NCBI GenBank assembly: GCA_963717515.1
Contig: OY970338.1
Location: 1,236,861-1,300,860 of the forward strand
Source: an uncultured Candidatus Woesearchaeota archaeon
GTDB taxonomy: Archaea > Nanobdellota > Nanobdellia > Woesearchaeales > DSVV01
Reading direction: 5' to 3'
DNA length: 64,000 nucleotides
Below are positions 9,094-30,661 of this stretch, one piece after another. A model generated the notes under the pieces. It was not told where the DNA came from and searched no databases. It saw only the letters and a list, made by a program, of their open reading frames with translations. The translations under genes were made by a program, and so were the position numbers. How positions within the stretch are numbered: the stretch's first letter is position 1; every line of letters starts with the position of its first letter.

Positions 9094-9100
9094 CTGTCCA

Positions 9101-9361: not shown

Positions 9362-9362
9362 C

Positions 9363-17395: not shown

Positions 17396-19012
17396 ATGGG
17401 GCTGAATCATTTTTTCATGCAATGGTATTACTGGGTCCTGCTTGCCATGTTTCTTGCCGTTGTCCTGCTCTTCATCTGGAACATCATCGCAGGCGCATTC
17501 AACAGGAAATGGTTCAATGCTTTTTCAGCAGTGCTCTTCATACTGATACTGTTTCTCGGTGCATACCTCCGCCATGTCAATGTAATGAACAATGACCCTG
17601 TGGAATCACTGTCGACAGAATACAAGCTGGGTGCGAAGACCTTCTACGAGAACCAGCAGTACAGGGTGTGCTACAGCGGGACGATCCATGACTGTGAGAT
17701 CCCCTATCAGCTGCCCAGGCATGTGCAGGGCTATCCCTTCCTCGTATCCCTGATGTATTATTTCACAGGATTCTCAGAGTATCTTGTCCACGTGTTCAAT
17801 GCTGTTGTCAGCATCCTCATAATTGTCCTTGCATATCTCCTGTCATATGCCTATTTCAGGGACAGGAAAACAGCGGTGCTCTCATCCCTGGGAGCAGCAG
17901 TCCTTCCTCTCATCATCGTATGGGGGACCACGGGCGAGGTGGTCATAACCAACATATTTTTCATTAGCCTCTCCCTGTTCTGCATCAAGATTGCCGCTGA
18001 TTCGAACGGCTTCTGGCAGTACATGCTCGCGTTTTTCACCTGCCTCTTCACAACGCACATGAGGGCTGAGAATGTCGTGCTCCTCCTGATCCTCGCATAT
18101 TTTTTTATCAGGGGCAATCATTCAAAGATCAAAAATCAGCTGGAAGGCGTTCCGAAACTTGGGCCAGCGAAGATTTCAATGCTTGGCATCGCCCTGCTCA
18201 TGTTCGTGTTCAACATCCTTTTTGTCAAATTCGCATCAGGTCAGCACGGCGGACTAGTGGGAGCGACGATAATCAGGGACATCAAAGTCCAGACCCTGTA
18301 CATCTTCGAGATATTGGCAGGGAAATACATGCTAGCTCTGAGCATTGGATTTATTTTGCTGCTGCTGGCAAAAAAATACAGGAAAAGCGCTTTGCCGTTA
18401 ATCCTGTTCTTCTTCATCCATCTCCTTATGGTGGTCTCGTTCCACCAGAATTTCCCGTCGGGTACAGACATCCATGCAGGCGCAGGAAACACAGAGAGAT
18501 ATTTCATGTCTGTGGCCCTTGTGCTGATAGTATGCGGAGTGCAGGGGCTGTGGTCTGCAGTTGAGAAAGCGGAAAAGGCAATCCGGCCATTCGCGGAGTT
18601 CAAGCAGGCAAGAACGATATGGAAGGTCTCTGCATTTATCCTTATTGGGCTGTATTTCCTCTCATTTGCAGGATTCTCTGTACACAGGATATCAGGTCCT
18701 TCTGGTACCTATTCGAATGTATCCTTCCGGAAAGTGATAGATGAGCTCAGGCCCGAAAAGCTCTATGTCAGCTCCTACGAGGTCGCGCAGTATGCCCAGG
18801 TCGTGACTGACGATGTCCCGGTGACAGTAGACAGGGATAAGGGCTCGTTGAGATTCTCAGGCAACAGGACAGGGGTGTATTACATCGAGCTGGTATCGGA
18901 ATATTTCCCTGAGAAATCCAGCGACTACCTGTCGAGCAGGGGGATTACGCCTGCTGAGAAGCACGGGGTATTCTGGTTCTACGACATCGATGGAAACTTT
19001 CATCAGCAATAA
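17396..19012 (+). CDS. GT-C fold membrane glycosyltransferase (ArnT/PMT family 39/83-like)
   Basis: 538 aa, about 11 TM segments followed by a soluble C-terminal domain. The architecture and GYPFLVSLMYYFTG resemble PMT_2/ArnT-type enzymes. It is a paralog of 48763..50280. Confidence 0.5.
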   Translation: MGLNHFFMQWYYWVLLAMFLAVVLLFIWNIIAGAFNRKWFNAFSAVLFILILFLGAYLRHVNVMNNDPVESLSTEYKLGAKTFYENQQYRVCYSGTIHDCEIPYQLPRHVQGYPFLVSLMYYFTGFSEYLVHVFNAVVSILIIVLAYLLSYAYFRDRKTAVLSSLGAAVLPLIIVWGTTGEVVITNIFFISLSLFCIKIAADSNGFWQYMLAFFTCLFTTHMRAENVVLLLILAYFFIRGNHSKIKNQLEGVPKLGPAKISMLGIALLMFVFNILFVKFASGQHGGLVGATIIRDIKVQTLYIFEILAGKYMLALSIGFILLLLAKKYRKSALPLILFFFIHLLMVVSFHQNFPSGTDIHAGAGNTERYFMSVALVLIVCGVQGLWSAVEKAEKAIRPFAEFKQARTIWKVSAFILIGLYFLSFAGFSVHRISGPSGTYSNVSFRKVIDELRPEKLYVSSYEVAQYAQVVTDDVPVTVDRDKGSLRFSGNRTGVYYIELVSEYFPEKSSDYLSSRGITPAEKHGVFWFYDIDGNFHQQ

Positions 19013-19033: not shown

Positions 19034-21031
19034 CTAGATATCATGGATGTTTTCCAGCCTTATCATGAAATCGACAAATCCGCTCATATCGTCCCTGTTC
19101 TGCTCAAGCGGTTCGGTCCTTATATCGACATGGCCGCCGAGCCTCTTCCAGTTCTCGATGCCTTTTATAGTCTGCTCAAAGCTCCCTCTTACCTGAGTAA
19201 TCTCATCATGAAAATCCGGCAGATGGCTGAACAGCTGGACTGAAATCCTATGCAAGCCAGTCCTTCTTAATTCTTTGCAGTATCTTTCAATTGACAGCAT
19301 TCTGGCGTTGGTATATAATATCACGTCAAGTCCAGCATCTTTCAGCCCCCTAATTATCAAAAACAGTGAATTAACCAGTGTCGGTTCCCCTCCACTTAAT
19401 ATGATTGTGCTGTATCTTCTCTTCAGATTTTTCATTTCTCCCACTATCTTGTCATAATTCCATATCTCATCAGCACAATCGTCAAAATATGACTTATTGT
19501 TGGATGATCTGATGAGATTGATCGTCTTTTGGGTCTTTTTCTTCATGTCACTATATCCTTTTAGAACGTATTGATATGCCTTCTGCTTGTCCCTGAACCT
19601 TTCAAATGCATAAAACAGCTCATAGGTGTTTGACCTGTAGTAGTCCTCTCCTATCTTCTTAAAAATGTTGAATAATTTTTTTAACTTGATGTTCCTGTAT
19701 GACTTCACAGTTTTCAGCTCTTCCCATGAATGGCCGCCGATCTCGTCATACGCGAATTCTCCGCTTGTCAGATGCCTGTGAGAGCCTACCCTGGAACGGA
19801 TCTTTATCCCGAACCTTTCCGGGTGCAGGAAAATCTCGGATTTTACAAGATAAAAATCACACACGTTCATCTGGTCGATGAAATCTATATTCTGAAGTAT
19901 GAAATCAAACGTGTCTTCAAAATCTTCCTCTGTTTCCTGCGGCAGGCCCACGATGATGTTCAATGAGACCCACATTCCGCATTCATGGGCCTTCTGGACA
20001 GCTTTCTTTGCAATATCGGATGTGTATCCCTTCCTTATCTTCTTGAGCATCCTGTTGCTTGCTGTTTCCAGCCCGAATGTGATATAGAACAGCCCGGACT
20101 TTCGCAACGGCGGCAGCAATCCTGTGTCAATATTGCATCTTGCGCTTCCGCACCACAAGAAATCCAGACCCTGCCTCACCATCTCCTGCGAAAGCTCCAG
20201 GGTTTTTTTTGTGTCAATCTCAATATAAGAGTTCAGGACAAAGAAGTATCTTGAATCGAATTTTTCAGACAACGCCTTCATCTCTTTTACAGTATTATCG
20301 ACGCTCTTGATGACCGGGGGCGGGCTGTCGCCTATGGAAGCACCGCAGAATGAGCACCTGTACGGGCAGTTCATCGACCAGAGGTAAGGTATTATGAATA
20401 TCCTGCCGGGGTTTCTGTAATAATAATATTCCGGTACATTCCTGTAACAATCAAAAGGGAGTCCTGTAAAATCAGGCATGGGTTTCGGAAAATCGCCGTC
20501 ACATCCCGTATCGTCATGGTCCTCACCCTTGATAAGCCTGAGTAATTGCCTTTCTCCCTGGCCTATAATCACTTCATCTATGAAATCGAATCTCTCTTTA
20601 AGGTCGCTGGTTGCGCTTTCTCCGCCAAATATTATCTTTGTCTTCTCGTCTCTGTCTTTGATACTCTTTGAGATCAACAATGCGTAATCCTTGGAAGAGC
20701 CTTCAATGATGGAGAATCCGATGGCGTCAAACCCTTCATAGTCAAGCTTGCTCAGCATAATTCCGGTCAGCTCATCCAGGATGGGGCTGGTCTTCCTGTC
20801 AAGAAGATAGTCTTCAAGCTCTTGTTGTGAATAGCTTTGCTGCAGCGACAACAACCTGATATAGCTTCTCTTATCACATATGAATCTTATCTCAAGATCG
20901 TCAAGGACTGATTTGTGGCCATGCATATTAAGATATGATGAGATATGGGCAATGCCTAACGGCGGTATCGAAATCAGACCCACTCCTTCATTGACAAAGT
21001 TCCTGGGCGGCATGACTAATTTTATTCTCAT
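19034..21031 (-). CDS. B12-binding radical SAM enzyme fused to a C-terminal rSAM-like domain lacking the cluster cysteines
   Basis: N-terminal cobalamin-binding-type domain (MRIKLVMPP...PPLGIAHISSYL), then rSAM CPYRCSFC. The C-terminal 190 aa or so align to the short rSAM paralogs (GGEPTL, YTNARML) but have SNNKSYFD where the paralogs have CNNRCIFC. Confidence 0.85.
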   Translation of the reverse strand: MRIKLVMPPRNFVNEGVGLISIPPLGIAHISSYLNMHGHKSVLDDLEIRFICDKRSYIRLLSLQQSYSQQELEDYLLDRKTSPILDELTGIMLSKLDYEGFDAIGFSIIEGSSKDYALLISKSIKDRDEKTKIIFGGESATSDLKERFDFIDEVIIGQGERQLLRLIKGEDHDDTGCDGDFPKPMPDFTGLPFDCYRNVPEYYYYRNPGRIFIIPYLWSMNCPYRCSFCGASIGDSPPPVIKSVDNTVKEMKALSEKFDSRYFFVLNSYIEIDTKKTLELSQEMVRQGLDFLWCGSARCNIDTGLLPPLRKSGLFYITFGLETASNRMLKKIRKGYTSDIAKKAVQKAHECGMWVSLNIIVGLPQETEEDFEDTFDFILQNIDFIDQMNVCDFYLVKSEIFLHPERFGIKIRSRVGSHRHLTSGEFAYDEIGGHSWEELKTVKSYRNIKLKKLFNIFKKIGEDYYRSNTYELFYAFERFRDKQKAYQYVLKGYSDMKKKTQKTINLIRSSNNKSYFDDCADEIWNYDKIVGEMKNLKRRYSTIILSGGEPTLVNSLFLIIRGLKDAGLDVILYTNARMLSIERYCKELRRTGLHRISVQLFSHLPDFHDEITQVRGSFEQTIKGIENWKRLGGHVDIRTEPLEQNRDDMSGFVDFMIRLENIHDI

Positions 21032-23341
21032 CTATATCTTCTCCGCAACCCGCTCTTTTCCCACAAAGAACAGCAAGTACGCGAACATCTCGATCTCATC
21101 CATCTTATTGATCCAGAATCCATCTTCATCCTCAGACAGGACTCCGAGCGCCTTGAGCGCCATAACTGCATGACTGAAATCCCTGCCAGGATTTCTGCCG
21201 AACCGAGACAAATAATCCACTTTATATAATCTGAACCCATGGACGAGATTGTTGACTATGTATTTAACTTTTTCGAAGTCCTTTGAATAGCTTGTAGCAT
21301 AATTAACCATTGCAGCTTCATTTGTCGGGAATTTTTTCAGGAAAATATGCTTATTGGAACCTTTGTTCATTATCTTGTAATCCAGGGAATAGGGTATAAT
21401 TGGGTTGGCATAGTAACCCAGCCCGAATACAGCATGCTGGTCGGAGCTGTGATGAAAATATTTGTACCGGCAAGGAGGCCTATAATTCTTGTTGAAGAAC
21501 TGTGTCGGATGGATGAATCCTAGCGTTTCATGGGCTTGCGCCCTGAAGCCTGCTTCATCAGCAATCCTGAATATGTCCCTTGAGACTGATTCATGGAGCT
21601 TGAAATAGAATTCATTGAACTTTTCAAGCGATTTGTAATTCTTGGTTATGTATTCCATATCAGTCATGATGGGATAGATGAATATTGAGTCAGGCCCGAA
21701 AGCTGCCAATTTCCTGAATGAACGGATGAATGCATCTTTATTATCACCCTTTAAGCCCAGAACAAGATCTGCATTCTTGGTCTGGATGCCTGCAACTCCC
21801 ATATCGTGCAAGGCATTCTTGACTGAGTCTATGTCCTGCACTGACCTGTTGTTCAGCCTTAGGACTTCTTCTGAGAGCGACTGAACGCCGATTGAAACTT
21901 TGTTGAATCCGATCTCTTTTGCTGTGCTGAGCTTTTCCAACGATGAAGTGCCGGGGTTGAATTCAATCACTTTCTGTGAGCTCTTATGGAATGCGAACCT
22001 GGAGAACAATCTGCCGAACAACACCTTCATCTGCAGGACAGAGAGAAGCGAGGGTGTCCCTCCCCCTGCATAGAACGACCTGAATTCCACGCCTGAAAAT
22101 ACTTCCGAGTACTCGTCTATTTTCCTCATCAGGTACTTAACATATCTATCCATGCTCCTGCTGTCATAGCCTGTGGAGGGGTAAATACAATATGAGCACA
22201 TGCTTGTGCAGAAGGGTATGCTCAGATAGAAATCATACTGGATCTTGCCGTCATTGTTTTCCTGTATGAACTTTTTCCATGCATCCCTGACTTGCCCTTC
22301 GCTCAGCTCCCCTATGTCCTCTCTCAGGAACATATCATGGATTGTTTCGAAGCTGTTCCTGAAATCCACCTTTTCCTGGACATTTTTGTAAAATTCAAGC
22401 TCAGCCTGATACTGTTCCCTGTTTCTGTTCTCACCATATTTTGTTGATTTCGATACCGGCTTGAGCTCATCGAACCCGTACAGCTTCACGTATCCTTCAA
22501 ACAGCCCGCCGCAGACAGGGTCATATATGCAGTCCTTGCATGCTTCTCCCTTTATCTTGCCGTCCTCGACGTGCCTTACCCTGCTCCCGCTCTCGCGCTC
22601 AAGCTCCCATCGGCTGTCCTTGAGCAAAAGCTCACCGCAGCAGTCTTCATAACCTCTCAAAAAACACGGTGGGATAGAGCAGCCTGTGAATGAGAAGCCC
22701 ATGCCATTCTTCCTACAGTAGTCAAGTGCATTCCTGAGATAAGGGACTGCTTCTGATATCTTAGGGACTATCCATCTGTTCTTCCAGGCATTGCCCGCAG
22801 GCATGACAAATGAGAATGTGATATGCAGCTTTCCGAACTTGTTGTAGATGAACTTCACAAACTCAAGGATTTCCTTGTAGTTCTCCTTGTTTATCACAAA
22901 GCTTATGTCAGTCCGGATGCCCGTATCGACGAAACTGCTTATGGCTCTTGTGCTCTTATCAAACCCACCAGGCACCCTGGTCAGCCTGTCTGATACCTCT
23001 TTTTTATGGGAATGAAGAGATACAAGGACATTATCGATACCTGATTCTTTTACTTTTTCTGCAAAACCAGGGATGGATGCCACAAGCCCGTTTGTGCAGA
23101 GAGTTATCTTCGACGGTTTTCTTTGCCTGACCAACCTGGCAATCCGGAAAAGGTTTCTGCTGATGGTCGGTTCTCCGCCATCAATCACTACTTCTGTCCC
23201 TTTTTCAATAGAGCTGATGGTCTTTATCAGCATGCCAATAGAAGGGTCTGTCCTGTTGACATCCTCTCTGTCATAGGAACAGAACAGGCAGTTCTGGTTG
23301 CAGAGTTCAGTCAGGAACAATTGCTTTATTGATCTTTTCAA
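21032..23341 (-). CDS. Tandem double radical SAM protein: short 'CNQNCLFC' rSAM with C-terminal Cys module, fused to a HemN/HemZ-like rSAM
   Basis: Domain 1 has ELCNQNCLFCS, DGGEPT, IPPCFLRGYEDCC and CKDCIYDPVCGG. Domain 2 has IPFCTSMCSYCIYP and FYAGGGTPSLL, typical of oxygen-independent coproporphyrinogen-oxidase-like enzymes. Confidence 0.85.
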   Translation of the reverse strand: MKRSIKQLFLTELCNQNCLFCSYDREDVNRTDPSIGMLIKTISSIEKGTEVVIDGGEPTISRNLFRIARLVRQRKPSKITLCTNGLVASIPGFAEKVKESGIDNVLVSLHSHKKEVSDRLTRVPGGFDKSTRAISSFVDTGIRTDISFVINKENYKEILEFVKFIYNKFGKLHITFSFVMPAGNAWKNRWIVPKISEAVPYLRNALDYCRKNGMGFSFTGCSIPPCFLRGYEDCCGELLLKDSRWELERESGSRVRHVEDGKIKGEACKDCIYDPVCGGLFEGYVKLYGFDELKPVSKSTKYGENRNREQYQAELEFYKNVQEKVDFRNSFETIHDMFLREDIGELSEGQVRDAWKKFIQENNDGKIQYDFYLSIPFCTSMCSYCIYPSTGYDSRSMDRYVKYLMRKIDEYSEVFSGVEFRSFYAGGGTPSLLSVLQMKVLFGRLFSRFAFHKSSQKVIEFNPGTSSLEKLSTAKEIGFNKVSIGVQSLSEEVLRLNNRSVQDIDSVKNALHDMGVAGIQTKNADLVLGLKGDNKDAFIRSFRKLAAFGPDSIFIYPIMTDMEYITKNYKSLEKFNEFYFKLHESVSRDIFRIADEAGFRAQAHETLGFIHPTQFFNKNYRPPCRYKYFHHSSDQHAVFGLGYYANPIIPYSLDYKIMNKGSNKHIFLKKFPTNEAAMVNYATSYSKDFEKVKYIVNNLVHGFRLYKVDYLSRFGRNPGRDFSHAVMALKALGVLSEDEDGFWINKMDEIEMFAYLLFFVGKERVAEKI

Positions 23342-25150
23342 TTACATCACCGAGCTTGTCGAATACAGGATATATCTCTTTATGGCTGAACACTTCTGCA
23401 TAATTTTCCGGCACCCCGAAACATATCTTCTTGAGCGTGCAGACCGAACACGGCTCATAGAAATTGTTCTGGCGCACCCCGTCATGGCTCATGTTGTCGT
23501 CGAAATGGAGATATGAACTTTTTGTGTTCCTTACTATCTCCATGGATGGCGCGGAATATTCCTCGTATCCCCTGAGATAGCAGAGCGGCATCCTGTCGAC
23601 GACAGCCTTCAGCCTGTTGTTTTTAATGTATTCCAGTGCCCTGTAGACCCCTAGCTCTGAATCGCTCATCTTCACGAGTGGCTCCATGTTCTTTTTCGCC
23701 TGGTTCACAGGGTCTATGAAAATGAAGTTGAACATGCCCATGTCAGGATATCTCTTGTGCAGGAACCTTACATGCTCAAGAAGGTGCTTATGGTTGTATG
23801 AACATATGACTATGCCGAAACTGAGCTTCTCTCTTTTCCATGAATGTATGCTGTCCATCGCCTTCAATGCAAGGCCGTAATCCTTTGCAGAGCCTGTTAT
23901 GGTCTCATAGAGCTTCCTGTCTGATGCATGGAACGAGACGAGAAAGTCGATATCAAAGGCGTCAATGAGGCGCTTGAAAAAGCTCCTGCTCGACAGCAGG
24001 GTGCCGTTTGTCTGTAGGATAATCTTATGGATGCCTTTTTGTTTGCAGTAATTCAGAAATTTCGGCAGGTCTTTGTTGAGAGTAGGCTCTCCGCCTGTCA
24101 GGGTCAGATTCGTAGCACCTCTCATGATTGCGTAATCAAGCTTTTTTTTAGCTCGGAAAAAGGCATTGTCGTATTGTCGCAAGTAACAGAGCAAAATGCA
24201 CATTTCTGATTGCACCTGTTGTCTATCTGGAGGATGATATGGTCCTGCTTCTTGAGCCTGGGCACAAGCTCCTTGTCGCCGTGAATATTGATATAGTTCT
24301 GGTTCAGCCCGGGGCACCTGGGCTCAAGCTCGCATTCAGAGCACACGTCCGGCTTTGAATAATAGTTGGCCCTCCTGTTTATGCTCCCTTCCTCGAGCAG
24401 ACCTGTGAATGACGGCTCGTCGAATGCCTCTCTCCTGACCTCGCTGCAGTATTCCTCGAAGCCAGGCAGGAAACAGAGCGGGACAAACTCGATCCTGAAT
24501 CCCATGCCCCTGTCCAGGATGTACTGGAATGCCTCGAGCATATGGGGCTTTGCATCAGTGAGCCTTGGCACTATCCACTTGTTCTTCATGGCGTTATTCG
24601 TGGGGTCGACAAAATTATAGCTGAAATGCCTGATATGCGGAAAATTCTTTTCTGAAAATATCACCATGTCCTGAAGATCCCTGTAGTTCAGCGCATTGAT
24701 GACAGTCGTGAAATACGCATGGATCCTGTATTTCTCCACATTCTTCACACCTCTGCAGAACTGGTCAAAATCTCCGTCCCCCCGGGAAAGCTTTGGAAAT
24801 ATATCTTTTTTATTGGTATGATAGGAGATGTCGAACTTGTCAAGCCCTGACTTGATATATGCCTTAAGCAGTTTTTCATCATGGAGCCTGGAGGCATTTG
24901 TCTGCACAGAGACCTCTTCAAATCCCTGGGCCTTTGCATACCTGATGAGTTCTGGCAGGTCATCCCTGAGAGTGGGCTCTCCGCCTGTGAACATCACTTC
25001 TGTCACATCCTCTTTTTTGAGGTCGTCGATTGTCTTTTTTGCCTCTTCAAATGACAGCTCTGCATCCGAGTTCGGTGCTGAGCAGAACACGCAGTCCTGG
25101 TTGCACTTCCTGCTGACCTGCACAGTCCCAAGCACATGCCTTTTTTTCAT
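23307..25150 (-). CDS. Tandem double radical SAM protein interrupted by a -1 frameshift at an A8 run (track ORFs 24122..25150 and 23307..24317)
   Basis: Domain 1 has RKCNQDCVFCS, FTGGEPTL, VPLCFLPGFEEYC and CSECELEPRCPG. Domain 2 starts in the same frame (DNRCNQKCAFCS...MPFSELKK) and continues only in the -1 frame (KLDYAIMRGATNLTLTGGEPTL...MPLCYLRGYEEY...CSVCTLKKICFG). The Cys-motif to GGEPT spacing across the shift is 30 aa, against 32 aa in domain 1. Confidence 0.75.
24142..24149 (-). other. A8 homopolymer (T8 on the plus strand) at the frameshift point; A-AAA-AAA-type slippery run
   Basis: The minus strand reads gag cta aaa aaa agc ttg. Shifting -1 after the lysine codons gives aag ctt gat tac, which restores the second rSAM domain. 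Confidence 0.8.
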
Positions 25151-25659
25151 TTTATAACCTTGATCAGCTCCAGGAACTTATCCTGGGAAAATCGTTTCTC
25201 TCTGCTGTCCCGCCATCCTGTCACCAGCTTCTCAAGATTGAAGATCCCTTTCTCGAAAAGCTCAAACTCCCCGACAGCCCTCAGTGAGAATAATAGCTCT
25301 ACCCAAGGGGTTATGTCATCCTTTTCATACGAGAGGCTTTCGACAAAAAACCCCGCACTGAGTATGAAATCGTCGAAGATGTAATACATGTTCCCTATCA
25401 ATGAATAGAACAGGCCGATGGTCCTGTCAAGACCCGAATCTCCTGTCCTCTTCCTCTCGGTCAGGAGCATCCTGAGTATCTCCCGCGCCTCACCGATGGC
25501 CTTTTCAAGCTCATCGTTTTTCTGGAACCTGAGGCAGAGGTTGTAAGAGAATATCTCATCATGAGGCTCTCCAAGGCCATACGGGATGGGCCTTCTGTCT
25601 ATCGGAAACCCCAAAGTCCTTTCGAGTTCAGCAATCCTATCCGATATCATGTAGTCCAT
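25147..25659 (-). CDS. Hypothetical protein, predicted helical, embedded in the rSAM operon
   Basis: 170-aa ORF with 4-nt overlap to the downstream rSAM gene and a 1-nt gap to the upstream gene. No motif recognised. Confidence 0.5.
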   Translation of the reverse strand: MDYMISDRIAELERTLGFPIDRRPIPYGLGEPHDEIFSYNLCLRFQKNDELEKAIGEAREILRMLLTERKRTGDSGLDRTIGLFYSLIGNMYYIFDDFILSAGFFVESLSYEKDDITPWVELLFSLRAVGEFELFEKGIFNLEKLVTGWRDSREKRFSQDKFLELIKVIK

Positions 25660-25660
25660 C

Positions 25661-26626
25661 TTAATCGAAATCGAGCATGAACCAGCCTTCTTTTCTATCG
25701 ACCGTTTTTATGGTCCTGTTCCCCTTGCAGATCTTGAGCTTGCCGTCTTTTTCCAGTATCCTGTCGCCTTTCCTGACTAAGTCATAGAAACCGACAGTGT
25801 CTTCCGGCCTGGCAGGGTTGTCGATGTAGACGCTGTCCCTGTATCTTATCTCATCGCCTTTCATGTTCCCGTCGAACATCATGAAATTCCTCTCCCCGAA
25901 CACAAGAAGAGGCCTTTTTAGGAGCTCCCGGGTCTTTTTCACGAATCCCGGCTCGGCATCCATAATCCTGTTTTCGACATCAGCCGCATAGGCGATCGTA
26001 TTCTCGCACCTGTATGAACACGGTATGTGATGTATGTAGAAGAATGTCTTGTCCATCAGGAAATTGTTGCAGAGATATGAGCCTTTTGCCCCTTTTCCGT
26101 CATATTCTGTATTCTTGTACGTCTCATGCGGGTGGCTGTAGAGTCTCCAGTTGTTGTATCTCCTGAAGAAATCCACGCAGCAGTCCGGGAACCCGAGAAG
26201 CCTGCCGAACCTCAGATGGTCGACAAAGGGCTTGTTTATGCTCCGGTTGCCTATGACGACGGAATACCAGCCGAATTTTTTTGCCTTCAGCGCATCTTCC
26301 CTGGAATCTGATACGAACACATGGACCTCTCCTTCTTTCATCTTTTCATGGAACCGCTCCCCTACCTGGAAAGTGGTCGTGATATTCTCAGCACCGACAA
26401 TGCCTGCCTTGCCGGTCTTCGGTGTCCTGAATACAACATCTGTCTCGATAAAGAGCCCATAATCTTTGCAGATATTCCTGAACTCGTCAAAGACATTCAC
26501 GTCGATCCAGTCATCATAGCTTCTTTTCACTCCGAGCGCAGCAGCCACAAACATAGGGTACTGGTCTGAGTTCTTCAGCCTGACGTACTCTTTTGCGAAT
26601 TTTTTCGGTACATACTGCCCAATCAT
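25661..26626 (-). CDS. Conserved-looking hypothetical protein with GFPDCC and HHIPCSYRC motifs
   Basis: 321-aa ORF overlapping the upstream rSAM gene by 4 nt. The Cys pattern LLGFPDCCVDFF ... YIHHIPCSYRCENT recalls an archaeal DUF family, but I cannot name it with certainty. Confidence 0.55.
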   Translation of the reverse strand: MIGQYVPKKFAKEYVRLKNSDQYPMFVAAALGVKRSYDDWIDVNVFDEFRNICKDYGLFIETDVVFRTPKTGKAGIVGAENITTTFQVGERFHEKMKEGEVHVFVSDSREDALKAKKFGWYSVVIGNRSINKPFVDHLRFGRLLGFPDCCVDFFRRYNNWRLYSHPHETYKNTEYDGKGAKGSYLCNNFLMDKTFFYIHHIPCSYRCENTIAYAADVENRIMDAEPGFVKKTRELLKRPLLVFGERNFMMFDGNMKGDEIRYRDSVYIDNPARPEDTVGFYDLVRKGDRILEKDGKLKICKGNRTIKTVDRKEGWFMLDFD

Positions 26627-27516
26627 CTTTTCACAGCGACAAACTCGTCGCTTCCCCTCCTCTCCGGATACTCTTTCCAGGGCCCCTCGCAGACATTGTC
26701 ATATTTGCACTCTTTGCACTGGGGGAATTTCATCTTTCCCTCTGTCCTGCGGGTATTCTCAAAAGACGGGTCATAGGAGTTCACATCCCTTATCTCTGTC
26801 TCAGGCATGTAGAATTCAGAGCAGTATCTCTCATAGCCTTCCATCATGCAGAAAGGCATTGCCTCTGCCATCACCTTGACACCCGCATCTATGCCTATCT
26901 GCAGACCCTTTTTTATGTAGGGTGATGCAAGGCTCACCCATGGCATCATCTGGTCATAATTATCCATAGCATTGCCCACAGCATGCATGAAGGCGAACTG
27001 GTACTGGTCGACGCCGAGGTCCACGAGGAGCTTTGCGATTTCAGGGAGGTACCTGTAATTCGGCTTCACGACGACAGTGTTGGTTATTATGTACTGGTCC
27101 AGCTCCCTCAGGTTCCTTATCGCCCTGGTTGTCTGCAGGAATGAGCCTTGCCCGCGGGTCAGGTAATCATGAAGCTCTGGGATGTGGCCATGGAGCGCCG
27201 GGCCGAATTCATTGACGCCTGCCTTTATCAGTTCCCTGCAGTAGTCCCTGTACTGGAGCATGCGGACATTGCTCTGGAGCTGGATTCTATCGAATCCCAG
27301 GCATTTTGCATGCCTCACAAGGTCGAGGAGGTCGTCTCTTATGGTTACTTCCCCACCTGTGAATACCACTCCTGTGCAGCCGGTCTTTTTTGCATCTTCA
27401 AGATCTTTCTTTATGTCTCCTGTCTTCCTGTTGCCGAACCTCTTCTTGTGCGCCTGGACGCAGAACAGACAGTTGTTGTTGCATAGAAACCCAGTCTTAA
27501 TATCGACCCTTTTCAT
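26623..27516 (-). CDS. Radical SAM enzyme, short family with C-terminal Cys module (candidate HxsC-like partner)
   Basis: Contains GFLCNNNCLFCVQ, FTGGEVT, MPFCMMEGYERYC and CKECKYDNVCEGPW. It is the first gene of the minus-strand operon, divergent from the Hxs-like genes. Confidence 0.85.
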   Translation of the reverse strand: MKRVDIKTGFLCNNNCLFCVQAHKKRFGNRKTGDIKKDLEDAKKTGCTGVVFTGGEVTIRDDLLDLVRHAKCLGFDRIQLQSNVRMLQYRDYCRELIKAGVNEFGPALHGHIPELHDYLTRGQGSFLQTTRAIRNLRELDQYIITNTVVVKPNYRYLPEIAKLLVDLGVDQYQFAFMHAVGNAMDNYDQMMPWVSLASPYIKKGLQIGIDAGVKVMAEAMPFCMMEGYERYCSEFYMPETEIRDVNSYDPSFENTRRTEGKMKFPQCKECKYDNVCEGPWKEYPERRGSDEFVAVKR

Positions 27517-27667
27517 TGACTGGTGAATATCAGCATATCTTATAAAACTTTGGGATTAGATGTTTGTATTTCAAAAAGATTTAAATATTTCCCGTGATTT
27601 TACCATTTTCATGCCAGACGTGTCTATGCAGGGAAACCTGGAGATAAACAAGAAAGAGGGGTTTGTG
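27517..27667. promoter_or_regulatory. Divergent promoter region between the rSAM operon and the Hxs-like genes
   Basis: TTTAAATA at 27590-27597 faces the plus strand. TTTTATAAGATA on the minus strand (about 27537-27548) lies roughly 20-32 nt upstream of the minus-strand ATG at 27516. A GAGGGG SD-like motif precedes the ATG at 27668. Confidence 0.3.
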
Positions 27668-28129
27668 ATGGTCTCTGTGAATCCGAAGATATATCCGCTT
27701 GACGTCGTCCTCTCATCCTCATACATGTTCACTGACAAGAACTATGTCCTTGTTGACGGAGACCCGGAGGAGGAGCTGATTGTCGAGCTCAGGCCGAAAG
27801 ACAAAAATGCCGACATAGAGAAGCTCGGCAGGGACTTCAACAACGAGCTCATCAATTATGCTAATTATGCAGTACGGGCGATACAGAACCAGGGGATGCG
27901 GGAAGCCATAATCCACAGGGTGCTCATGACAAATTCAGCAGGCAGACCGGATTACAGGCAGCCTGTTGAAGAATATCCTGCTGCTGATGAAGAGCTCCTT
28001 GAAGTCGATGCAAAGCCTTGGATAAAATCAGACGAGAAATCAGAGGCCGACTCGCCATGGTTTGACGACCCTGAGGGGATCGCTGTTCCCTGGGAGGAGA
28101 AATATGGGGATAAAGGTAAGAAAAAATAA
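27668..28129 (+). CDS. HxsD-like small protein with acidic C-terminal tail (start uncertain; track ORF begins at 27560)
   Basis: MVSVNPKIYPLDVVLSSSYMFTDKNYVLVDG...GRDFNNELINYANYAVRA resembles the layout and the LLNDYxLRE-type motif I recall for HxsD. Alternative ATGs lie at 27560, 27611 and 27626. Confidence 0.45.
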   Translation: MVSVNPKIYPLDVVLSSSYMFTDKNYVLVDGDPEEELIVELRPKDKNADIEKLGRDFNNELINYANYAVRAIQNQGMREAIIHRVLMTNSAGRPDYRQPVEEYPAADEELLEVDAKPWIKSDEKSEADSPWFDDPEGIAVPWEEKYGDKGKKK

Positions 28130-28319
28130 TGTTCTTGTAAGGCTCAACGAGGAAATCTACTGCAGGGAATGCATTGAGCAGGCTATCAAGGATTTCAAGG
28201 ACGTATGCACAGTGACTGAGAATGAAGACGGCCTCCTGCTCAAGCCAAAGGCGAAGATCGAGCCTGTGAGGCTGGGTTATGAATTTTCCAATTATGTTCT
28301 AGGGCTCATGAAGAATTAG
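28104..28319 (+). CDS. Second HxsD-like small protein
   Basis: 71 aa from the ATG at 28104, preceded by GGAGGAG. It reads VLVRLNEEIYCRECIEQAIKDFKDVC...GYEFSNYVLGLMKN, with the same architecture as the upstream gene. Confidence 0.45.
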   Translation: MGIKVRKNNVLVRLNEEIYCRECIEQAIKDFKDVCTVTENEDGLLLKPKAKIEPVRLGYEFSNYVLGLMKN

Positions 28320-28324
28320 TGAAG

Positions 28325-29704
28325 ATGGCGATAAGTTATTTCGGGGACAAGGAGCAGTATGTACTGAACCATTACAGGTCGAGAGAGATCAAGGCAGGCC
28401 ATCTGGTGACCAATGACTACGGCTCTTGGGCGTTGCTTTCTCCTGATGAATACGCACAGCTCAGGACAGGGGACATCCAGGAGCCTCTTCTGACTCTTCT
28501 GAAGGATAAGGGGATTGTACTTGACAGGGGAAATTTTGCAAATGTCATCGATGATTACAGGAGGAAATGCGACTATCTCTTCATCGGCACTTCGCTCCAT
28601 ATTGTTGTCCCGACCCTGAGATGCAACTTGAAGTGCATTTACTGCCATGCAAGGGCCAAGAGCAGCAGGGCCAAGGGCTATGACATGGATGAAAAAACTG
28701 CGAAAAAAACCATTGATTTCATCTTCCAGAGCCCGACAGGATACATCACCATAGAATTCCAGGGGGGCGAGCCCCTGCTCAGGTTTGACCTCATCAAATA
28801 CATTATTGAATATGCAAAAGAGAAGAACAAGTCCCATAAGAAGGAGCTCCATTGGAGTGTGGTCACTAACCTTACCCATATGACTGATGAGATGTTTGAA
28901 TATTTCAAGAAGAACGGTGTCGGCATATGCACATCCCTTGACGGCCCTAAGGTTGTGCATGATGCAAACAGGCAGATGCATAGCAAGACCAGGAAATGGA
29001 TAAAGAAGATTGTTGATTCTTATACTATCAATGCAATGCTCCTTGCGACAAGGAACACACTGCCATACCCAAAGGAGATAGTTGATGAGTACATCAGCCT
29101 GGGCCTTCCGAGGATATGGATCAAGCCTGTGAACAACCTCGGCGATGCTGAGGGGAACTGGAAGAAGATCGGCATGACTGCAGCAGAATACCTTGATTTC
29201 TGGACAGAGGCGATGGATTATATCGTTACCAAGAACATCGAAGGGGTCCGGATTGAGGAAAATTATACCAAGATAATCCTGAGGAAGATACTGACAAAGG
29301 AATGCGTGAATTTCACAGACCTTGAAAGCCCATGCGGGGCTGCAATCGGCCAGCTCGCGTACAGCTACAACGGAAACATCCATACGTGCGATGAGGCAAG
29401 GCTGTTTGAGATGTTCAAGCTCGGGACAGTGGATGACAGATACAGCGATATAGTCACATCTCCAGGCGCATGTGCAATCACGAGGGCATCGATCAATGAC
29501 AATCCTGTGTGCGAGATGTGCGCCTACAAGCCTATATGCGGACTCTGCCCTGTGTGCAGTTATGCAGAGACAGGAAATATCATATCGAAGCTGCCGAACA
29601 GGCGCTGTGAGATACTTATCGGCATGTTCGACTACATATTTGAAAAGCTTGCTTCTGAAGAAAAATACAGGAAAGTTTTCTTCAGCTGGATAGGGAAAGA
29701 ATAA
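28325..29704 (+). CDS. Radical SAM/SPASM maturase (HxsB-like; anaerobic sulfatase maturase superfamily)
   Basis: About 90-aa N-terminal extension, then RCNLKCIYCHA and FQGGEPLL. The SPASM region is CGAAIGQLAYSYNGNIHTCDE ... CEMCAYKPICGLCPVCSY. The track ORF starts at GTG 28319, and the ATG is at 28325. Confidence 0.85.
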   Translation: MAISYFGDKEQYVLNHYRSREIKAGHLVTNDYGSWALLSPDEYAQLRTGDIQEPLLTLLKDKGIVLDRGNFANVIDDYRRKCDYLFIGTSLHIVVPTLRCNLKCIYCHARAKSSRAKGYDMDEKTAKKTIDFIFQSPTGYITIEFQGGEPLLRFDLIKYIIEYAKEKNKSHKKELHWSVVTNLTHMTDEMFEYFKKNGVGICTSLDGPKVVHDANRQMHSKTRKWIKKIVDSYTINAMLLATRNTLPYPKEIVDEYISLGLPRIWIKPVNNLGDAEGNWKKIGMTAAEYLDFWTEAMDYIVTKNIEGVRIEENYTKIILRKILTKECVNFTDLESPCGAAIGQLAYSYNGNIHTCDEARLFEMFKLGTVDDRYSDIVTSPGACAITRASINDNPVCEMCAYKPICGLCPVCSYAETGNIISKLPNRRCEILIGMFDYIFEKLASEEKYRKVFFSWIGKE

Positions 29705-29761: not shown

Positions 29762-30661
29762 ATGCTGCCGATATTAAAAAAAAAGATAACAGGTTTCATA
29801 CTTAGTGAAGAGGGCAGGATGCCCAAGCAGTCTCTTCTTGCCATGGGCTCATTCCTTTCTGCAGCAGTCATCGGAGGTATTCTTGCGACAAGGGACAATG
29901 CTGCAAGCCATGTGAACAGCCTTGACATCAGGTATGGCACTTCCGAGGGATTAGGGGCTGAGGAGTCCAGGGGATATCATGACCATCATGCAAGCCACAG
30001 TTCACACGGTTCACATAGCAGTCATGGCTCGCATAGTTCACACGGTTCACACAGTTCCCATGGCAGCCATGGGAGTCATACAAGCCATAGCAGTCATGGT
30101 TCGCATAGTTCACACGGTTCACACAGTTCCCATGGCAGCCATGGGAGTCATACAAGCCATAGCAGTCATGGTTCGCATAGTTCACACGGTTCACACAGTT
30201 CCCATGGCAGCCATGGGAGTCATACAAGCCATAGCAGCCATGGTTCGCATAGCTCCCACTCAAGCCATGGTTCCCACAGCAGCCATAGTTCTCACAGCTC
30301 CCACTCAAGCCATGGTTCCCACAGCAGCCATAGTTCTCACAGCTCCCACTCAAGCCATGGTTCCCACAGCAGCCATAGTTCGCATAGCTCCCACTCAAGC
30401 CATGGTTCCCACAGCAGCCATGGTTCTCACAGTTCTCATGGAAGCCACAGCAGTCATGGTTCTCATAGTAGTCACGGGAGTCATACAAGCCATGGTTCTC
30501 ATAGTTCTCATGGCAGTCACTCAAGCCATGGAAGTCATAGCTCGCATGGGAGTCATGCGAGCGGTGGTGGTGGTGGTAGCGACGGCAGTTGTGGTACATC
30601 AGATGGCGATGCTGGCGGTGGCGGTGGCGATGGCGGTGCTAGTTGTGGTTGTGGATATTAG
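29762..30661 (+). CDS. His-Xaa-Ser repeat protein (HxsA-like): N-terminal hydrophobic segment, 64 HxS triplets, Gly/Asp/Cys tail
   Basis: - aa 1-75 contain SLLAMGSFLSAAVIGGILA.
- aa 76-267 are 64 consecutive H-[SGTA]-S triplets (29987-30562).
- The tail is GGGGGSDGSCGTSDGDAGGGGGDGGASCGCGY. Confidence 0.8.
   Translation: MLPILKKKITGFILSEEGRMPKQSLLAMGSFLSAAVIGGILATRDNAASHVNSLDIRYGTSEGLGAEESRGYHDHHASHSSHGSHSSHGSHSSHGSHSSHGSHGSHTSHSSHGSHSSHGSHSSHGSHGSHTSHSSHGSHSSHGSHSSHGSHGSHTSHSSHGSHSSHSSHGSHSSHSSHSSHSSHGSHSSHSSHSSHSSHGSHSSHSSHSSHSSHGSHSSHGSHSSHGSHSSHGSHSSHGSHTSHGSHSSHGSHSSHGSHSSHGSHASGGGGGSDGSCGTSDGDAGGGGGDGGASCGCGY
30041..30256 (+). repeat. 72-bp tandem repeat x3 inside the HxS gene
   Basis: The units 30041-30112 and 30113-30184 are identical. 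The third unit (30185-30256) differs only near its end. Each unit encodes 24 aa. Confidence 0.9.
30251..30430 (+). repeat. 45-bp tandem repeat x4 inside the HxS gene
   Basis: agctcccactcaagccatggttcccacagcagccatagttctcac occurs at 30251-30295 and again, identical, at 30296-30340. The units at 30341-30385 and 30386-30430 carry 1-3 substitutions. Each unit encodes 15 aa. Confidence 0.9.

What the first reader, a model, noticed from the sequence alone, without database searches (positions are those of the whole stretch)
19034..27516. 8.5-kb minus-strand operon packing six rSAM domains, one dead rSAM domain and two unknown proteins into six tightly coupled genes
- The genes at 26623, 25661, 25147, 23307-25150, 21032 and 19034 are co-oriented.
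- Their junctions run from +1 nt to 35-nt overlaps (26626/26623, 25661/25659, 25150/25147, 23341/23307, 21032/21031), consistent with one transcript and translational coupling.
- The order is: short rSAM, GFPDCC protein, helical protein, double rSAM, double rSAM+HemN-like, then B12-rSAM+dead domain.
- Because the operon diverges from the HxS genes, it is the obvious candidate for multi-step tailoring of that substrate. That link is inference from position only.
Basis: partly seen in the sequence, partly recalled or inferred. Interest (0 to 1): 0.7.

Follow-up and report, generated by a model that had tools for sequence, protein, structure and literature searches.

The report
Expanded archaeal His-Xaa-Ser maturation operon
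An archaeal chromosome carries a six-gene operon packed with radical-SAM enzyme domains related to HxsC, plus two conserved partner proteins. It most likely modifies the neighbouring 64-repeat His-Xaa-Ser protein, making it a much enlarged and undescribed version of the HXS system recently shown to block phage DNA entry in bacteria.

Summary
Window 19034-27516 (minus strand) carries six co-oriented genes with junctions from a 35-nt overlap to a 1-nt gap. They hold six CxxxCxxC radical-SAM (rSAM) motifs and one cluster-less domain.

One caveat: gene D (23307-25150) is split in this window by a frameshift at an 8-base homopolymer (24142-24149). An otherwise identical short-read assembly has 9 bases there and an intact 614-aa gene.

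The positional guess is now backed by homology and synteny:
- All five small rSAM domains score best against HxsC4/HxsC, though far below the family cut-offs.
- The divergent plus strand encodes an HxsD-like protein, HxsD_rel, HxsB and an HxsA4-type protein with about 64 HxS repeats, but no HxsC.
- In about ten other lineages the same genes sit next to HxsD, HxsB or HxsA.

The conserved core is A (HxsC4-like rSAM), B (DUF483-like, six invariant Cys, no solved structural relative) and C (TPR). These three are found fused pairwise in other genomes. D, E and F are accessory and only partly conserved in order.

An A24 prepilin-peptidase-like gene (16126-17241) probably belongs to the system.

Verdict: a new variant of a known kind. 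The chemistry and the physiological role are untested.

The parts
26623..27516 (-). Gene A: single-domain HxsC4-like radical-SAM enzyme (297 aa; CNNNCLFC at C12; C-terminal Cx9C...CxxCx5C)
   Evidence: NCBIfam best hits are HxsC4 at 166.9 bits (cut-off 500) and HxsC at 87.4 (cut-off 267.9). Orthologues in 10 other loci all score best on HxsC4, at 100-247 bits. Closest solved structures by sequence are BlsE (7VOB) and GDGT-MAS (7TOL).
25661..26626 (-). Gene B: DUF483-like Cys-rich protein (321 aa; invariant C53, H102, C149, C150, C186, C203, C207; 'GFPDCC' motif)
   Evidence: Pfam DUF483 scores 24.3 against a cut-off of 25. The 27-sequence alignment is A1. The AF2 model has pLDDT 93.9, with no PDB fold match at E<0.1 and no PDB sequence match. 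The family has 1492/430/91 50%-identity clusters at E<=1e-3/1e-10/1e-30. It is found fused to A-type rSAM, to C/TPR, and to DUF362+ferredoxin.
25147..25659 (-). Gene C: small TPR-like helical protein (170 aa), the obligate neighbour of B
   Evidence: Homologues are annotated as TPR or hit Pfam TPR_1/TPR_2. The AF2 model has pLDDT 92.3 and is all-helical. Top fold hits are TPR peptide binders (Rap, NprR, Sec72, IpgC), with probability 0.94-1.0 but E 0.07-0.5. C lies downstream of B, or is fused to it, in about 30 of 33 loci.
23307..25150 (-). Gene D: double HxsC-like radical-SAM protein (614 aa when intact; CNQDCVFC at C16 and CNQKCAFC at C313). It is frameshifted in this window.
   Evidence: L001 encodes an intact 614-aa protein. 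The L111 ortholog is intact at 637 aa.
24142..24149 (-). Homopolymer (A8 in the mRNA sense) where the reading frame of D breaks. The short-read assembly has A9 here.
21032..23341 (-). Gene E: HxsC-like rSAM domain (residues 1-300, C14) fused to a HemN-like (class C) rSAM domain (residues about 345-740, C378)
   Evidence: NCBIfam hits: STM4012 family 152.9, HemN 118.4, HxsC 102.4. PDB matches: HemN 1OLT (E 7.6e-21) and the methyltransferase NocN 9P2U. Similar fusions occur in L003, L008 and L111.
19034..21031 (-). Gene F: B12-binding-type (class B-like) rSAM (C222) fused to a short HxsC-like domain that has lost its CxxxCxxC
   Evidence: Pfam Radical_SAM 128.5; B12-binding 27.4 (below the cut-off of 32.1). 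NCBIfam hits are B12-rSAM families plus HxsC 71.1 for residues 521-658. Six full-length orthologues exist at 43-47% identity. Five keep CNNxCxxC (C-N-N-x-C-x-[FY]-C) in the C-terminal domain; the window protein and P0105 have lost it.
27517..27610 (.). 94-nt divergent promoter region with two archaeal TATA-like boxes
   Evidence: TTTAAATA at 27580-27587 lies 24-31 nt upstream of the HxsD ATG at 27611. GTTTTATAAG (reverse complement of 27539-27548) lies 23-32 nt upstream of the A ATG at 27516. This is inference only; transcription start sites were not measured.
27611..28129 (+). HxsD-like protein (172 aa from the likely start)
   Evidence: TIGR03976 HxsD 45.1 bits against a cut-off of 50. The precomputed Pfam PF27806 (HxsD) hit is listed on the identical L001 gene.
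28104..28319 (+). HxsD_rel small protein (71 aa from the ATG, preceded by GGAGG)
   Evidence: NF038315 HxsD_rel 55.6 bits against a cut-off of 41. Start and Shine-Dalgarno motif. The gene call in L001 is also 71 aa.
28319..29704 (+). HxsB, a SPASM-type rSAM maturase
   Evidence: TIGR03978 433.7 bits against a cut-off of 370.
29762..30661 (+). HxsA4-type precursor: conserved leader, one hydrophobic segment, about 64 His-Xaa-Ser repeats, and a Gly/Cys-rich tail
   Evidence: NF038313 HxsA4 96 bits against a cut-off of 55; HxsA3 N-terminal domain 40.4 against 65. Sequence. Tandem repeats in the DNA. The leader is conserved in 10 other precursors.
16126..17241 (+). A24 (prepilin/preflagellin) peptidase-like polytopic membrane protein; probable accessory of the system
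   Evidence: Arc_PepC 23.7 against a cut-off of 23.4; Peptidase_A24 23.0 against 26.5. Conserved motifs are YQDIKTGKIRN and WTAGDAKLF. Homologues sit next to HxsD in L107 (238 bits) and L109 (193 bits).
17396..19012 (+). PMT_2-type membrane glycosyltransferase, convergent with F; membership in the system is uncertain
   Evidence: Pfam PMT_2 30.5 against a cut-off of 26.1. A homologue (110 bits) lies near F in L111, but none is present in L107 or L109.

Best explanation
The minus-strand operon is the HxsC side of an expanded archaeal His-Xaa-Ser (Hxs) protein-maturation system.

**Gene roles**
- The plus strand supplies the substrate: an HxsA4-type protein with a conserved leader, a membrane or signal segment and about 64 HxS repeats.
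- The plus strand also supplies the adaptors (an HxsD-like protein and HxsD_rel) and the SPASM enzyme HxsB.
- The single HxsC of canonical systems is replaced by four active HxsC-like rSAM domains (A, D-N, D-C, E-N) and one cluster-less HxsC-like domain (F C-terminus).
- Two further rSAM modules belong to the classes that normally transfer C1 units: HemN-like (class C) in E and B12-type (class B) in F.

**Proposed mechanism (inferred)**
- Gene A works together with B (a Cys/His-rich protein, probably metal- or Fe-S-binding, with no solved structural relative) and C (a TPR peptide-binding scaffold).
- The enzymes act in the cytoplasm on the HxS repeats.
- The modified protein is then exported and trimmed, possibly by the nearby A24-like peptidase or by signal peptidase at an AxA site.

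**Shown here:** gene content, homology, synteny and gene fusions.

**Inferred:** that HxsA is the substrate, the division of labour among the domains, the chemistry, and the physiological role. By analogy with E. coli HXS the role may be a barrier against virus DNA entry, but this is untested.
For: 1. **The HxsC-like domains match the gap on the other strand.**
   - A, D-N, D-C, E-N and F-C all score best against HxsC4 or HxsC.
   - They are 21-33% identical to one another and share a Cx9C...CxxCx5C tail.
   - HxsD_rel, HxsB and HxsA4 pass their NCBIfam cut-offs; the HxsD-like gene scores 45.1 against 50. No HxsC lies between HxsB and HxsA, unlike the canonical D-B-C-A order (PMC13128918).
2. 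**Synteny recurs in other genomes.**
   - L003 has the same divergent layout.
   - L009 and L025 have HxsD-HxsB-HxsA(x1-3)-rSAM-A-B-C on one strand.
   - L109 has B-C-A24 peptidase-HxsD-HxsD_rel-HxsB-HxsA on one strand, with F divergent.
   - L107 has double rSAM-F-B-C facing A24 peptidase-HxsD-HxsD_rel-HxsB-HxsA.
   - L029, L047 and L075 mix B with HxsB and HxsD or HxsC-like genes.
3. **The A-B-C trio is linked by adjacency and fusion.**
   - B-C adjacency holds in about 30 of 33 loci.
   - Natural fusions exist for A+B (P0216, P0226, P0245), B+C (P0137, L019) and C+rSAM (L006, L020, L025, L029).
4. **D, E and F recur elsewhere.**
   - L111 repeats the order A-D-x-E-F.
   - F orthologues keep the two-domain architecture.
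5. **Published biology.** In E. coli, HxsC pulls down HxsD, and HxsB and HxsC are required for HxsA processing. The processed HxsA carries a +8 Da (+C, -4H) change on an HxS motif.
6. **The locus looks native.** The operon's GC content (0.44-0.51) matches the adjacent ribosomal-protein operon (0.48), so it appears native and chromosomal.
Against: - There are no expression or biochemical data.
- All HxsC-like domains score far below the curated HxsC and HxsC4 cut-offs, so their chemistry may differ.
- Only 8 of the 33 loci with a full-length B (L002-L034) have HxsB or HxsD within 10 kb, and most of the bacterial ones have none of HxsB, HxsD or HxsA. No alternative repeat substrate was found there.
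- The window holds at least 12 more rSAM genes, including two HxsC-like genes on the plus strand at 34188 and 36226. These could be the real HxsC partners of HxsB.
- D is frameshifted in the window as given.
Confidence: 0.65

Rival explanations
1. The operon is an independent radical-SAM pathway built around the A-B-C core. It acts on some other substrate (another peptide, a lipid, a glycan or a cofactor) and merely lies next to the Hxs genes within a large rSAM and glycosylation region.
For: - 25 of the 33 loci with a full-length B show no HxsB or HxsD within 10 kb, and most of the bacterial ones show no HxS repeats either.
- The window from 30 to 63 kb holds about 12 further rSAM genes, glycosyltransferases, a DegT aminotransferase and an ATP-grasp enzyme.
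- Two HxsC-like genes on the plus strand (34188-35126 at 122.9 bits and 36226-37116 at 155.1 bits on TIGR03977) score higher on HxsC than any operon domain does. They could serve HxsB and HxsA instead.
Against: - A/B/C/F orthologues sit directly beside or among HxsD, HxsB and HxsA in about ten independent lineages, in several cases on the same strand.
- The operon shares a 94-nt divergent promoter region with the HxsD-like gene.
- The 30-50 kb region has a very different GC content (0.34 against 0.44-0.51) and looks like a separate island.
Confidence: 0.22
2. The operon is decaying. The frameshift in D and the lost Fe-S motif in F mark a pseudogenising remnant with no current function.
For: - D is split at an A8 run in the window.
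- The C-terminal domain of F has lost the CxxxCxxC motif that five of six orthologues retain.
Against: - A short-read assembly of the same organism has A9 and an intact D. It shows no other difference over 14.4 kb.
- All other ORFs are intact, with tight junctions.
- The cluster-less F domain keeps GGEPT and the other conserved blocks, and the same loss occurs in P0105. That fits a stable non-catalytic domain.
Confidence: 0.05
3. The frameshift in D is functional. Transcriptional or ribosomal -1 slippage on A AAA AAA, or phase variation, would produce either a single-domain or a double-domain enzyme.
For: - The break lies exactly on an A8 run that forms an X XXY YYZ-type heptamer in the upstream frame.
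- A -1 shift restores the 614-aa protein.
Against: - The ortholog in L111 has no A-run at the site and is in frame.
- The only other assembly of the same organism simply has A9.
- The window contains 17 A/T runs of 8 or more bases, so such runs are common here.
Confidence: 0.05

Closest known systems
Canonical HXS (HxsDBCA) antiphage system of Pseudomonadota (TIGR03976-03979; Li et al., Nat Commun 2026, PMC13128918)
   Same: - It has an HxS-repeat protein plus the SPASM rSAM HxsB (which passes the family cut-off here), small HxsD-type proteins and HxsC-type rSAM chemistry.
- The substrate has an N-terminal segment that is processed before export.
   Different: - This locus is archaeal.
- It has about 64 repeats against 5.
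- No peptidoglycan-binding domain was detected on HxsA by the family scans.
- It has no single HxsC. Instead there are four active and one inactive HxsC-like domains spread over four genes, plus HemN-like and B12-type rSAM modules, a DUF483-like protein, a TPR protein and an A24-like peptidase.
- The gene order is divergent rather than D-B-C-A.
- A defence function has not been shown.
NCBIfam 'type 4' Hxs variant families (HxsA4 NF038313, HxsC4 NF038332, HxsD_rel NF038315)
   Same: - HxsA4 and HxsD_rel pass their cut-offs here.
- Gene A and its orthologues in 10 loci always score best against HxsC4.
   Different: - A scores 100-247 bits against a cut-off of 500, so it is a sister family and not HxsC4 itself.
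- Nothing found in the literature searches made here ties these curated families to a B/C partner pair or to multi-domain rSAM fusions.
Multi-rSAM RiPP clusters that include class B (B12) and class C (HemN-like) rSAM methyltransferases, for example the families TIGR03975 and ApyD, and NocN (9P2U)
   Same: - F hits ApyD and the TIGR03975 RiPP C-methyltransferase family.
- The HemN-like part of E hits HemN and NocN.
- Several rSAM enzymes appear to converge on one ribosomal precursor.
   Different: - The scores are far below the family cut-offs.
- The substrate is a 299-aa repeat protein rather than a short peptide.
- The rSAM domains are fused in pairs.
DUF483 (PF04467)
   Same: The central region of B (residues 135-212, including GFPDCC and CNN) matches the DUF483 profile. 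Several homologues pass the threshold.
   Different: - B itself scores 24.3 against a cut-off of 25.
- DUF483 has no known function or structure, so the match does not explain B.

Membership tests
HxsC (TIGR03977, His-Xaa-Ser system radical SAM maturase) | Whole-protein score at or above the curated cut-off of 267.9 bits | tested here: not met
   A 87.4; D-N ORF 105.7; D-C ORF 62.0; E 102.4; F 71.1. HxsC is nonetheless the best or second-best family for every domain.
HxsC (TIGR03977) | CxxxCxxC radical-SAM cluster motif and a SAM-binding GGE motif | tested here: met
   Present in A, D-N, D-C and E-N. F-C keeps GGEPT but lacks the Cys triad.
HxsC (TIGR03977) | Encoded next to HxsB, HxsD and an HxS-repeat HxsA (canonical order D-B-C-A) | tested here: inconclusive
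   The genes are adjacent to the HxsD-like gene, HxsB and HxsA but on the opposite strand, not between HxsB and HxsA.
HxsC (TIGR03977) | Physical complex with HxsD and requirement for HxsA maturation | not testable with these tools
   Shown only for E. coli. This needs pull-downs and genetics.
HxsC4 (NF038332) | Score at or above the curated cut-off of 500 bits | tested here: not met
   A scores 166.9. Ten orthologues of A score 100-247.
HxsB (TIGR03978) | Score at or above the cut-off of 370 bits | tested here: met
   Window 28319-29704 scores 433.7 bits over the full length of the profile.
HxsA4 (NF038313) / His-Xaa-Ser repeat protein | Score at or above the cut-off of 55 bits, with tandem His-Xaa-Ser repeats | tested here: met
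   96 bits. About 64 contiguous HxS units. The match is low-complexity, so the score alone is weak evidence. The conserved leader shared with 10 other precursors supports homology.
HxsD (TIGR03976) / HxsD_rel (NF038315) | Score at or above the cut-off (50 and 41 bits respectively) | tested here: inconclusive
   27560-28129 scores 45.1 against 50 (not met, but a precomputed PF27806 HxsD hit is listed on the identical gene). 28062-28319 scores 55.6 against 41 (met).
Class B (B12-dependent) radical-SAM enzymes | N-terminal B12-binding domain plus an rSAM core | tested here: inconclusive
   F: Radical_SAM 128.5 (met); B12-binding 27.4 against a cut-off of 32.1 (E 3.3e-6, not met). The best NCBIfam hits are all B12-rSAM families but fall far below their cut-offs.
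HemN-like (class C) radical-SAM enzymes | HemN-type rSAM core with CxxxCxxC; family cut-offs are HemN 324.95 and STM4012 380 | tested here: not met
   E residues 345-740: STM4012 152.9; HemN 118.4. PDB HemN 1OLT E 7.6e-21. It is related but is not a member of any curated equivalog.
DUF483 (PF04467) | Score at or above the gathering threshold of 25 bits | tested here: not met
   B scores 24.3 bits. Several close homologues do carry PF04467 hits.
Peptidase A24 (prepilin/preflagellin peptidase), archaeal type | Pfam Peptidase_A24 and Arc_PepC domains, with two catalytic Asp residues in polytopic membrane segments (the second in a GxGD-like motif) | tested here: inconclusive
   Window 16126-17241: Arc_PepC 23.7 against 23.4 (met); Peptidase_A24 23.0 against 26.5 (not met). 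Conserved D23 (YQDIK) and AGDAK motifs are shared with the L107, L109 and L084 homologues.

The most novel reading that the evidence does not exclude
A-B-C is a previously unrecognised three-component maturase core, made of an HxsC4-like rSAM enzyme, a Cys/His-rich protein with no solved structural relative, and a TPR scaffold. It is spread across DPANN-type archaea, Omnitrophota and other little-studied lineages. In archaea it has recruited arrays of fused rSAM domains to hyper-modify a long poly(His-Xaa-Ser) protein. That protein is exported, and possibly cut by a dedicated prepilin-type A24 peptidase, to form a cell-surface polymer. This would be an archaeal counterpart of the HXS barrier against virus DNA entry, or a new class of rSAM-modified surface or pilin-like protein.
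Probability: 0.3. Interest if true: 0.8.

Novelty: new variant of a known kind. Interest (0 to 1): 0.62.

Why it matters
HXS was shown only in 2026 to be an antiphage system that blocks phage DNA entry. Its rSAM chemistry (a +8 Da change on an HxS motif) is still undefined, and that study found 99.7% of systems in Pseudomonadota.

This locus matters for four reasons:
- The Hxs toolkit also exists in archaea, in a much enlarged form with 64 repeats and about seven HxsC-type domains.
- It identifies two conserved partner proteins (B and C) that gene fusions tie physically to the HxsC-type enzyme.
- It points to a candidate leader peptidase.
- It offers natural 'dissected' versions of the chemistry, in the form of separate HxsC-like, HemN-like and B12-type modules. 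These could help work out what HxsB and HxsC do to His-Xaa-Ser.

Protein B is also a sizeable family with a confident predicted fold and no solved relative.

Tried and rejected
- **Bacterial promoter and terminator scan of 18.5-28.4 kb.**
  - Promoter-like sites: 20, against 14.5±3.7 expected.
  - Terminator-like sites: 5, against 8.2±3.1 expected.
  - Neither is informative, because the organism is an archaeon. I used the archaeal TATA consensus and T-runs instead.
- **PADLOC scan of all operon and Hxs proteins.** It returned only generic rSAM cross-hits to pVip and one weak PDC-M51A hit. PADLOC-DB 2.0 has no Hxs models.
- **Fold search of B against the PDB and a profile search of PDB sequences.**
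  - Neither gave a significant match.
  - The best was 2GUK, an unknown-function protein (E 0.5, TM-score 0.69 normalised to the target). I treated this as not established.
- **Literature search for DUF483/PF04467.** It returned only unrelated DUF48xx families.
- **Search for rSAM RiPPs in DPANN or Woesearchaeota.** Nothing specific turned up.
- **Looking for other repeat or low-complexity precursors near B-C in loci without Hxs genes.** None was convincing.
- **Naming the organism through cluster look-up.**
  - The sources give no names.
  - Only 'archaeon' is secure, from the ribosomal proteins S4e and L32e.
  - The closest loci are MAGs labelled Methanosarcinales (TPA) or Woesearchaeota. 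I could not verify those labels.
- **Programmed frameshifting in D.** I considered and rejected this as the main reading.
- **One script call returned no answer.** I repeated it.

Full report
**1. What is in the sequence**

The minus strand between 19034 and 27516 carries these ORFs:
- A: 26623-27516, 297 aa
- B: 25661-26626, 321 aa
- C: 25147-25659, 170 aa
- D: 23307-25150
- E: 21032-23341, 769 aa, TTG start
- F: 19034-21031, 665 aa

A/B and C/D overlap by 4 nt (ATGA). B/C have a 1-nt spacer. D/E overlap by 35 nt. E/F abut.

F ends 21 nt from the stop of a convergent gene (17396-19012). A starts 94 nt from the likely start of the divergent HxsD-like gene (27611). The unit therefore has fixed ends.

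CxxxCxxC motifs lie at A C12, D C16 and C313, E C14 and C378, and F C222, which makes six. The last 165 residues of F align with the other small rSAM domains and keep GGEPT, but they read SNNKSYFDDC where the others read CNNxCxFC.

**2. The frameshift in D**

D is not one ORF in the window. 23307-25150 is 1844 nt long, and the frame changes at an A8 run in the mRNA sense (T8 at 24142-24149 on the plus strand).
- A Logan short-read assembly of run ERR11571143 (L001) matches the window over 14,398 bp with a single difference, one extra base at that run. It encodes an intact 614-aa protein with both rSAM domains.
- The ortholog in L111 is intact and has no A-run there.

**3. What the proteins are**

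*HxsC-like rSAM domains.* Against NCBIfam, every small rSAM domain scores best on the two HxsC families:
- A: HxsC4 166.9, HxsC 87.4
- D-N: HxsC 105.7
- D-C: HxsC4 73.5
- E-N: HxsC 102.4
- F-C: HxsC 71.1

All are far below the cut-offs (500 for HxsC4, 267.9 for HxsC). The domains are 21-33% identical to one another and share a C-terminal Cx9C...CxxCx5C pattern, so they are old paralogues. Orthologues of A from ten other loci also always score best on HxsC4, at 100-247 bits. A is therefore a sister family of HxsC4 and not a member.

*Other rSAM modules.*
- The C-terminal half of E is HemN-like: STM4012 family 152.9, HemN 118.4, PDB 1OLT E 7.6e-21, and the class C methyltransferase NocN 9P2U.
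- The N-terminal part of F resembles B12-binding rSAM enzymes. The B12 domain itself is below the Pfam threshold (27.4 against 32.1).

*Protein B.*
- It has only a sub-threshold DUF483 match.
- A 27-sequence alignment shows invariant C53, H102, C149, C150, C186, C203 and C207.
- The AF2 model is confident (pLDDT 93.9).
- It has no significant structural match and no sequence match in the PDB.

*Protein C.* It is a small TPR-like protein.

**4. The neighbours**

The plus strand encodes:
- an HxsD-like protein (45.1 bits against a cut-off of 50)
- HxsD_rel (55.6 against 41)
- HxsB (433.7 against 370)
- an HxsA4-type protein (96 against 55) with about 64 HxS repeats

There is no HxsC between HxsB and HxsA, which is where 99.6% of canonical systems have it.

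The window's first 11 kb hold the archaeal ribosomal-protein operon, including S4e and L32e. The host is therefore an archaeon, and the locus is chromosomal and close to core genes. The GC content of the operon (0.44-0.51) matches that of the ribosomal-protein operon (0.48). The region from 30.7 to 50 kb is at 0.34.

TTTAWATA, the archaeal TATA consensus, occurs 30 times against 7.65 expected, often 20-35 nt before start codons.
- One copy lies 24-31 nt before the HxsD ATG.
- A near-consensus copy (GTTTTATAAG) lies 23-32 nt before the A ATG.
- None lies on the coding strand inside the operon.
- Only two T6 runs occur in the mRNA sense, and neither is at a junction.

This fits one divergent promoter region and a single transcript, but nothing was measured.

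**5. Comparative evidence**

*Distribution of B.* B has 80 close homologues, with source names such as Woesearchaeota and Thorarchaeota. It has 1492 cluster representatives at E<=1e-3 among 1.84 billion. A scan of species-representative genomes returned 80 loci, which I annotated with my own ORF and HMMER pipeline.

*B-C pairing.* A C-type TPR protein lies next to B, or is fused to it, in about 30 of the 33 loci that hold a full-length B. The exceptions are contigs that end at B.

*Hxs neighbours.*
- An HxsB-like (above 200 bits) or HxsD-like gene lies within 10 kb in L003, L009, L014, L022, L023, L025, L029, L047 and L075.
- HxS-repeat precursors with the same leader occur in L003, L006, L009, L025 (three tandem copies), L083, L107 and L109.
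- L025 and L009 carry HxsD-HxsB-HxsA-rSAM-A-B-C on one strand.

*F orthologues.* F has six full-length orthologues. Their contexts are:
- L107: double rSAM-F-B-C, convergent with A24 peptidase-HxsD-HxsD_rel-HxsB-HxsA-rSAM
- L109: B-C-A24 peptidase-HxsD-HxsD_rel-HxsB-HxsA-rSAMs on one strand, with F divergent
- L111: A-D-x-E-F, the same order as here, on a contig that begins at A

*Fusions.* Natural fusions link all three core proteins:
- A-type rSAM + B: P0216, P0226, P0245
- B + C: P0137, L019
- C + rSAM: L006, L020, L025, L029
- a long TPR region + B
- DUF362 + ferredoxin + B: P0134

*Domain arrays.* Double and triple HxsC-like domain proteins recur in L005, L082, L083 and L084. HxsC-like + HemN-like fusions, as in gene E, recur in L003, L008 and L111.

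*The 'dead' domain.* Five of six F orthologues keep CNNxCxxC (C-N-N-x-C-x-[FY]-C) in the short C-terminal domain. The window protein and P0105 have lost it. The dead state is therefore derived, while the truncated domain itself is conserved.

**6.

Window 16126-17241 (plus strand, 371 aa) is a polytopic membrane protein.
- It has marginal Arc_PepC and Peptidase_A24 hits.
- It has conserved YQDIK...N and AGDAKLF motifs.
- Its homologues sit immediately beside HxsD in L107 (238 bits) and L109 (193 bits).

The HxsA leaders share this pattern: LPx[IL]KKKxxx[FY]LxxEEGKISKxS, then about 20 hydrophobic residues, then an AxA-like site. Cleavage could be by this A24-like peptidase before the hydrophobic stretch, or by signal peptidase after AxA. 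I cannot tell which.

**7. How it most likely works**

In E. coli, HxsC binds HxsD. HxsB and HxsC are needed for N-terminal processing of HxsA and for defence. The processed protein carries a +8 Da (+C, -4H) change on an SHRSS motif, which the authors attribute to the HxsC-HxsD core. The matured protein acts in the periplasm against phage DNA entry (PMC13128918).

I propose that in this archaeon:
- the operon supplies the HxsC function in multiplied form;
- A, together with B and C, is the conserved core;
- D, E and F add further HxsC-like domains and two C1-transfer-type rSAM modules;
- they act on the 64 HxS repeats before export.

Gene content, homology, synteny and fusions are shown. Substrate identity, chemistry and role are inferred. 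I put this at 0.65.

Rivals:
- The main rival (0.22) is that the A-B-C pathway serves another substrate and is only a neighbour. Support comes from the 25 of 33 full-length-B loci with no HxsB or HxsD within 10 kb. It also comes from two plus-strand HxsC-like genes at 34188 and 36226, which score higher on HxsC than any operon domain.
- Decay (0.05) and functional frameshifting (0.05) are unlikely.

**8. Novelty**

The Hxs system is known, and NCBIfam already curates the variants HxsA3, HxsA4, HxsC4 and HxsD_rel. I found no description of this architecture, of the B-C partner pair, or of archaeal Hxs systems. I class it as a new variant of a known kind. The B family and the A-B-C core are its most original elements.

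Noticed in passing
window 391-11359 (minus strand): This is the archaeal ribosomal-protein operon (L3, L4, L2, L22, S3, S4e, S8, L32e, L18/L5e). It has strong AT skew (-0.2 to -0.4). Several ORFs look long for their families (L22 ORF 281 aa, L4 335 aa, S3 270 aa). It shows that the window is archaeal chromosome.
   Followed up: partly
window 11717-11817 (+): ARAGORN reports a 101-nt 'tRNA-???' with a four-base anticodon, ctat. It may be an intron-containing archaeal tRNA or a false call.
   Followed up: no
window 30700-63200: - This region is very dense in rSAM genes. They start at 33107 (SPASM), 34188 and 36226 (HxsC-like, 123 and 155 bits), 37782 (minus strand, B12), 40893 (nitroreductase + rSAM), 47407, 50327 (B12), 54787 and 57156 (SPASM), 58070 (B12), 60684, and 61730 (minus strand, MiaB-like).
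- Mixed in are glycosyltransferases, a second PMT_2 gene, a DegT aminotransferase, an ATP-grasp enzyme and a methyltransferase.
- GC content drops to 0.34 between 30.7 and 50 kb, which suggests a separately acquired island.
   Followed up: partly
window 39310-40743 (-): A 477-aa protein with a B12-binding domain but no Radical_SAM hit lies directly upstream of the B12-rSAM gene at 37782-39317.
   Followed up: no
window 30762-31838 (+): A lipoprotein-like 358-aa protein lies right after HxsA. It has a weak transglutaminase-core match (22.3 bits against a cut-off of 23). It might act on the exported HxsA, but no homologue was seen in the other Hxs loci.
   Followed up: partly
window 28316-29383 (-), 29928-30599 (-), 29979-30665 (+): These long ORFs run antisense to HxsB or in alternative frames of the HxsA repeat array. 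They have no family hits and are almost certainly artefacts of composition and repeats.
   Followed up: yes
window-wide: The archaeal TATA consensus TTTAWATA occurs 30 times against 7.65±2.74 expected. Many copies lie 20-35 nt upstream of start codons (for example 27580, 45191 and 48733), which suggests mostly leaderless transcripts.
   Followed up: partly
L025 4957-7865: Three tandem precursor genes carry the Hxs-type leader but degenerate H-x-S/N repeats separated by spacers. They lie between HxsB and the rSAM-A-B-C genes, and represent a different substrate design in the same system.
   Followed up: partly
P0134 (676 aa, metagenomic): The B domain is fused behind a DUF362 domain and a 2x[4Fe-4S] ferredoxin domain. 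This hints that B takes part in electron transfer or Fe-S chemistry.
   Followed up: partly
L082, L083, L084: Single polypeptides of 940-1060 aa hold three HxsC-like rSAM domains in a row. L083 also has a 47-unit HxS-rich protein on the same contig.
   Followed up: partly
L003 3263-4150: The HxsA gene of the second-closest genome locus (61% identity for protein B) is interrupted by a run of N, an assembly gap inside the repeat array. Repeat numbers in such MAGs, and possibly in this window, may be unreliable.
   Followed up: no
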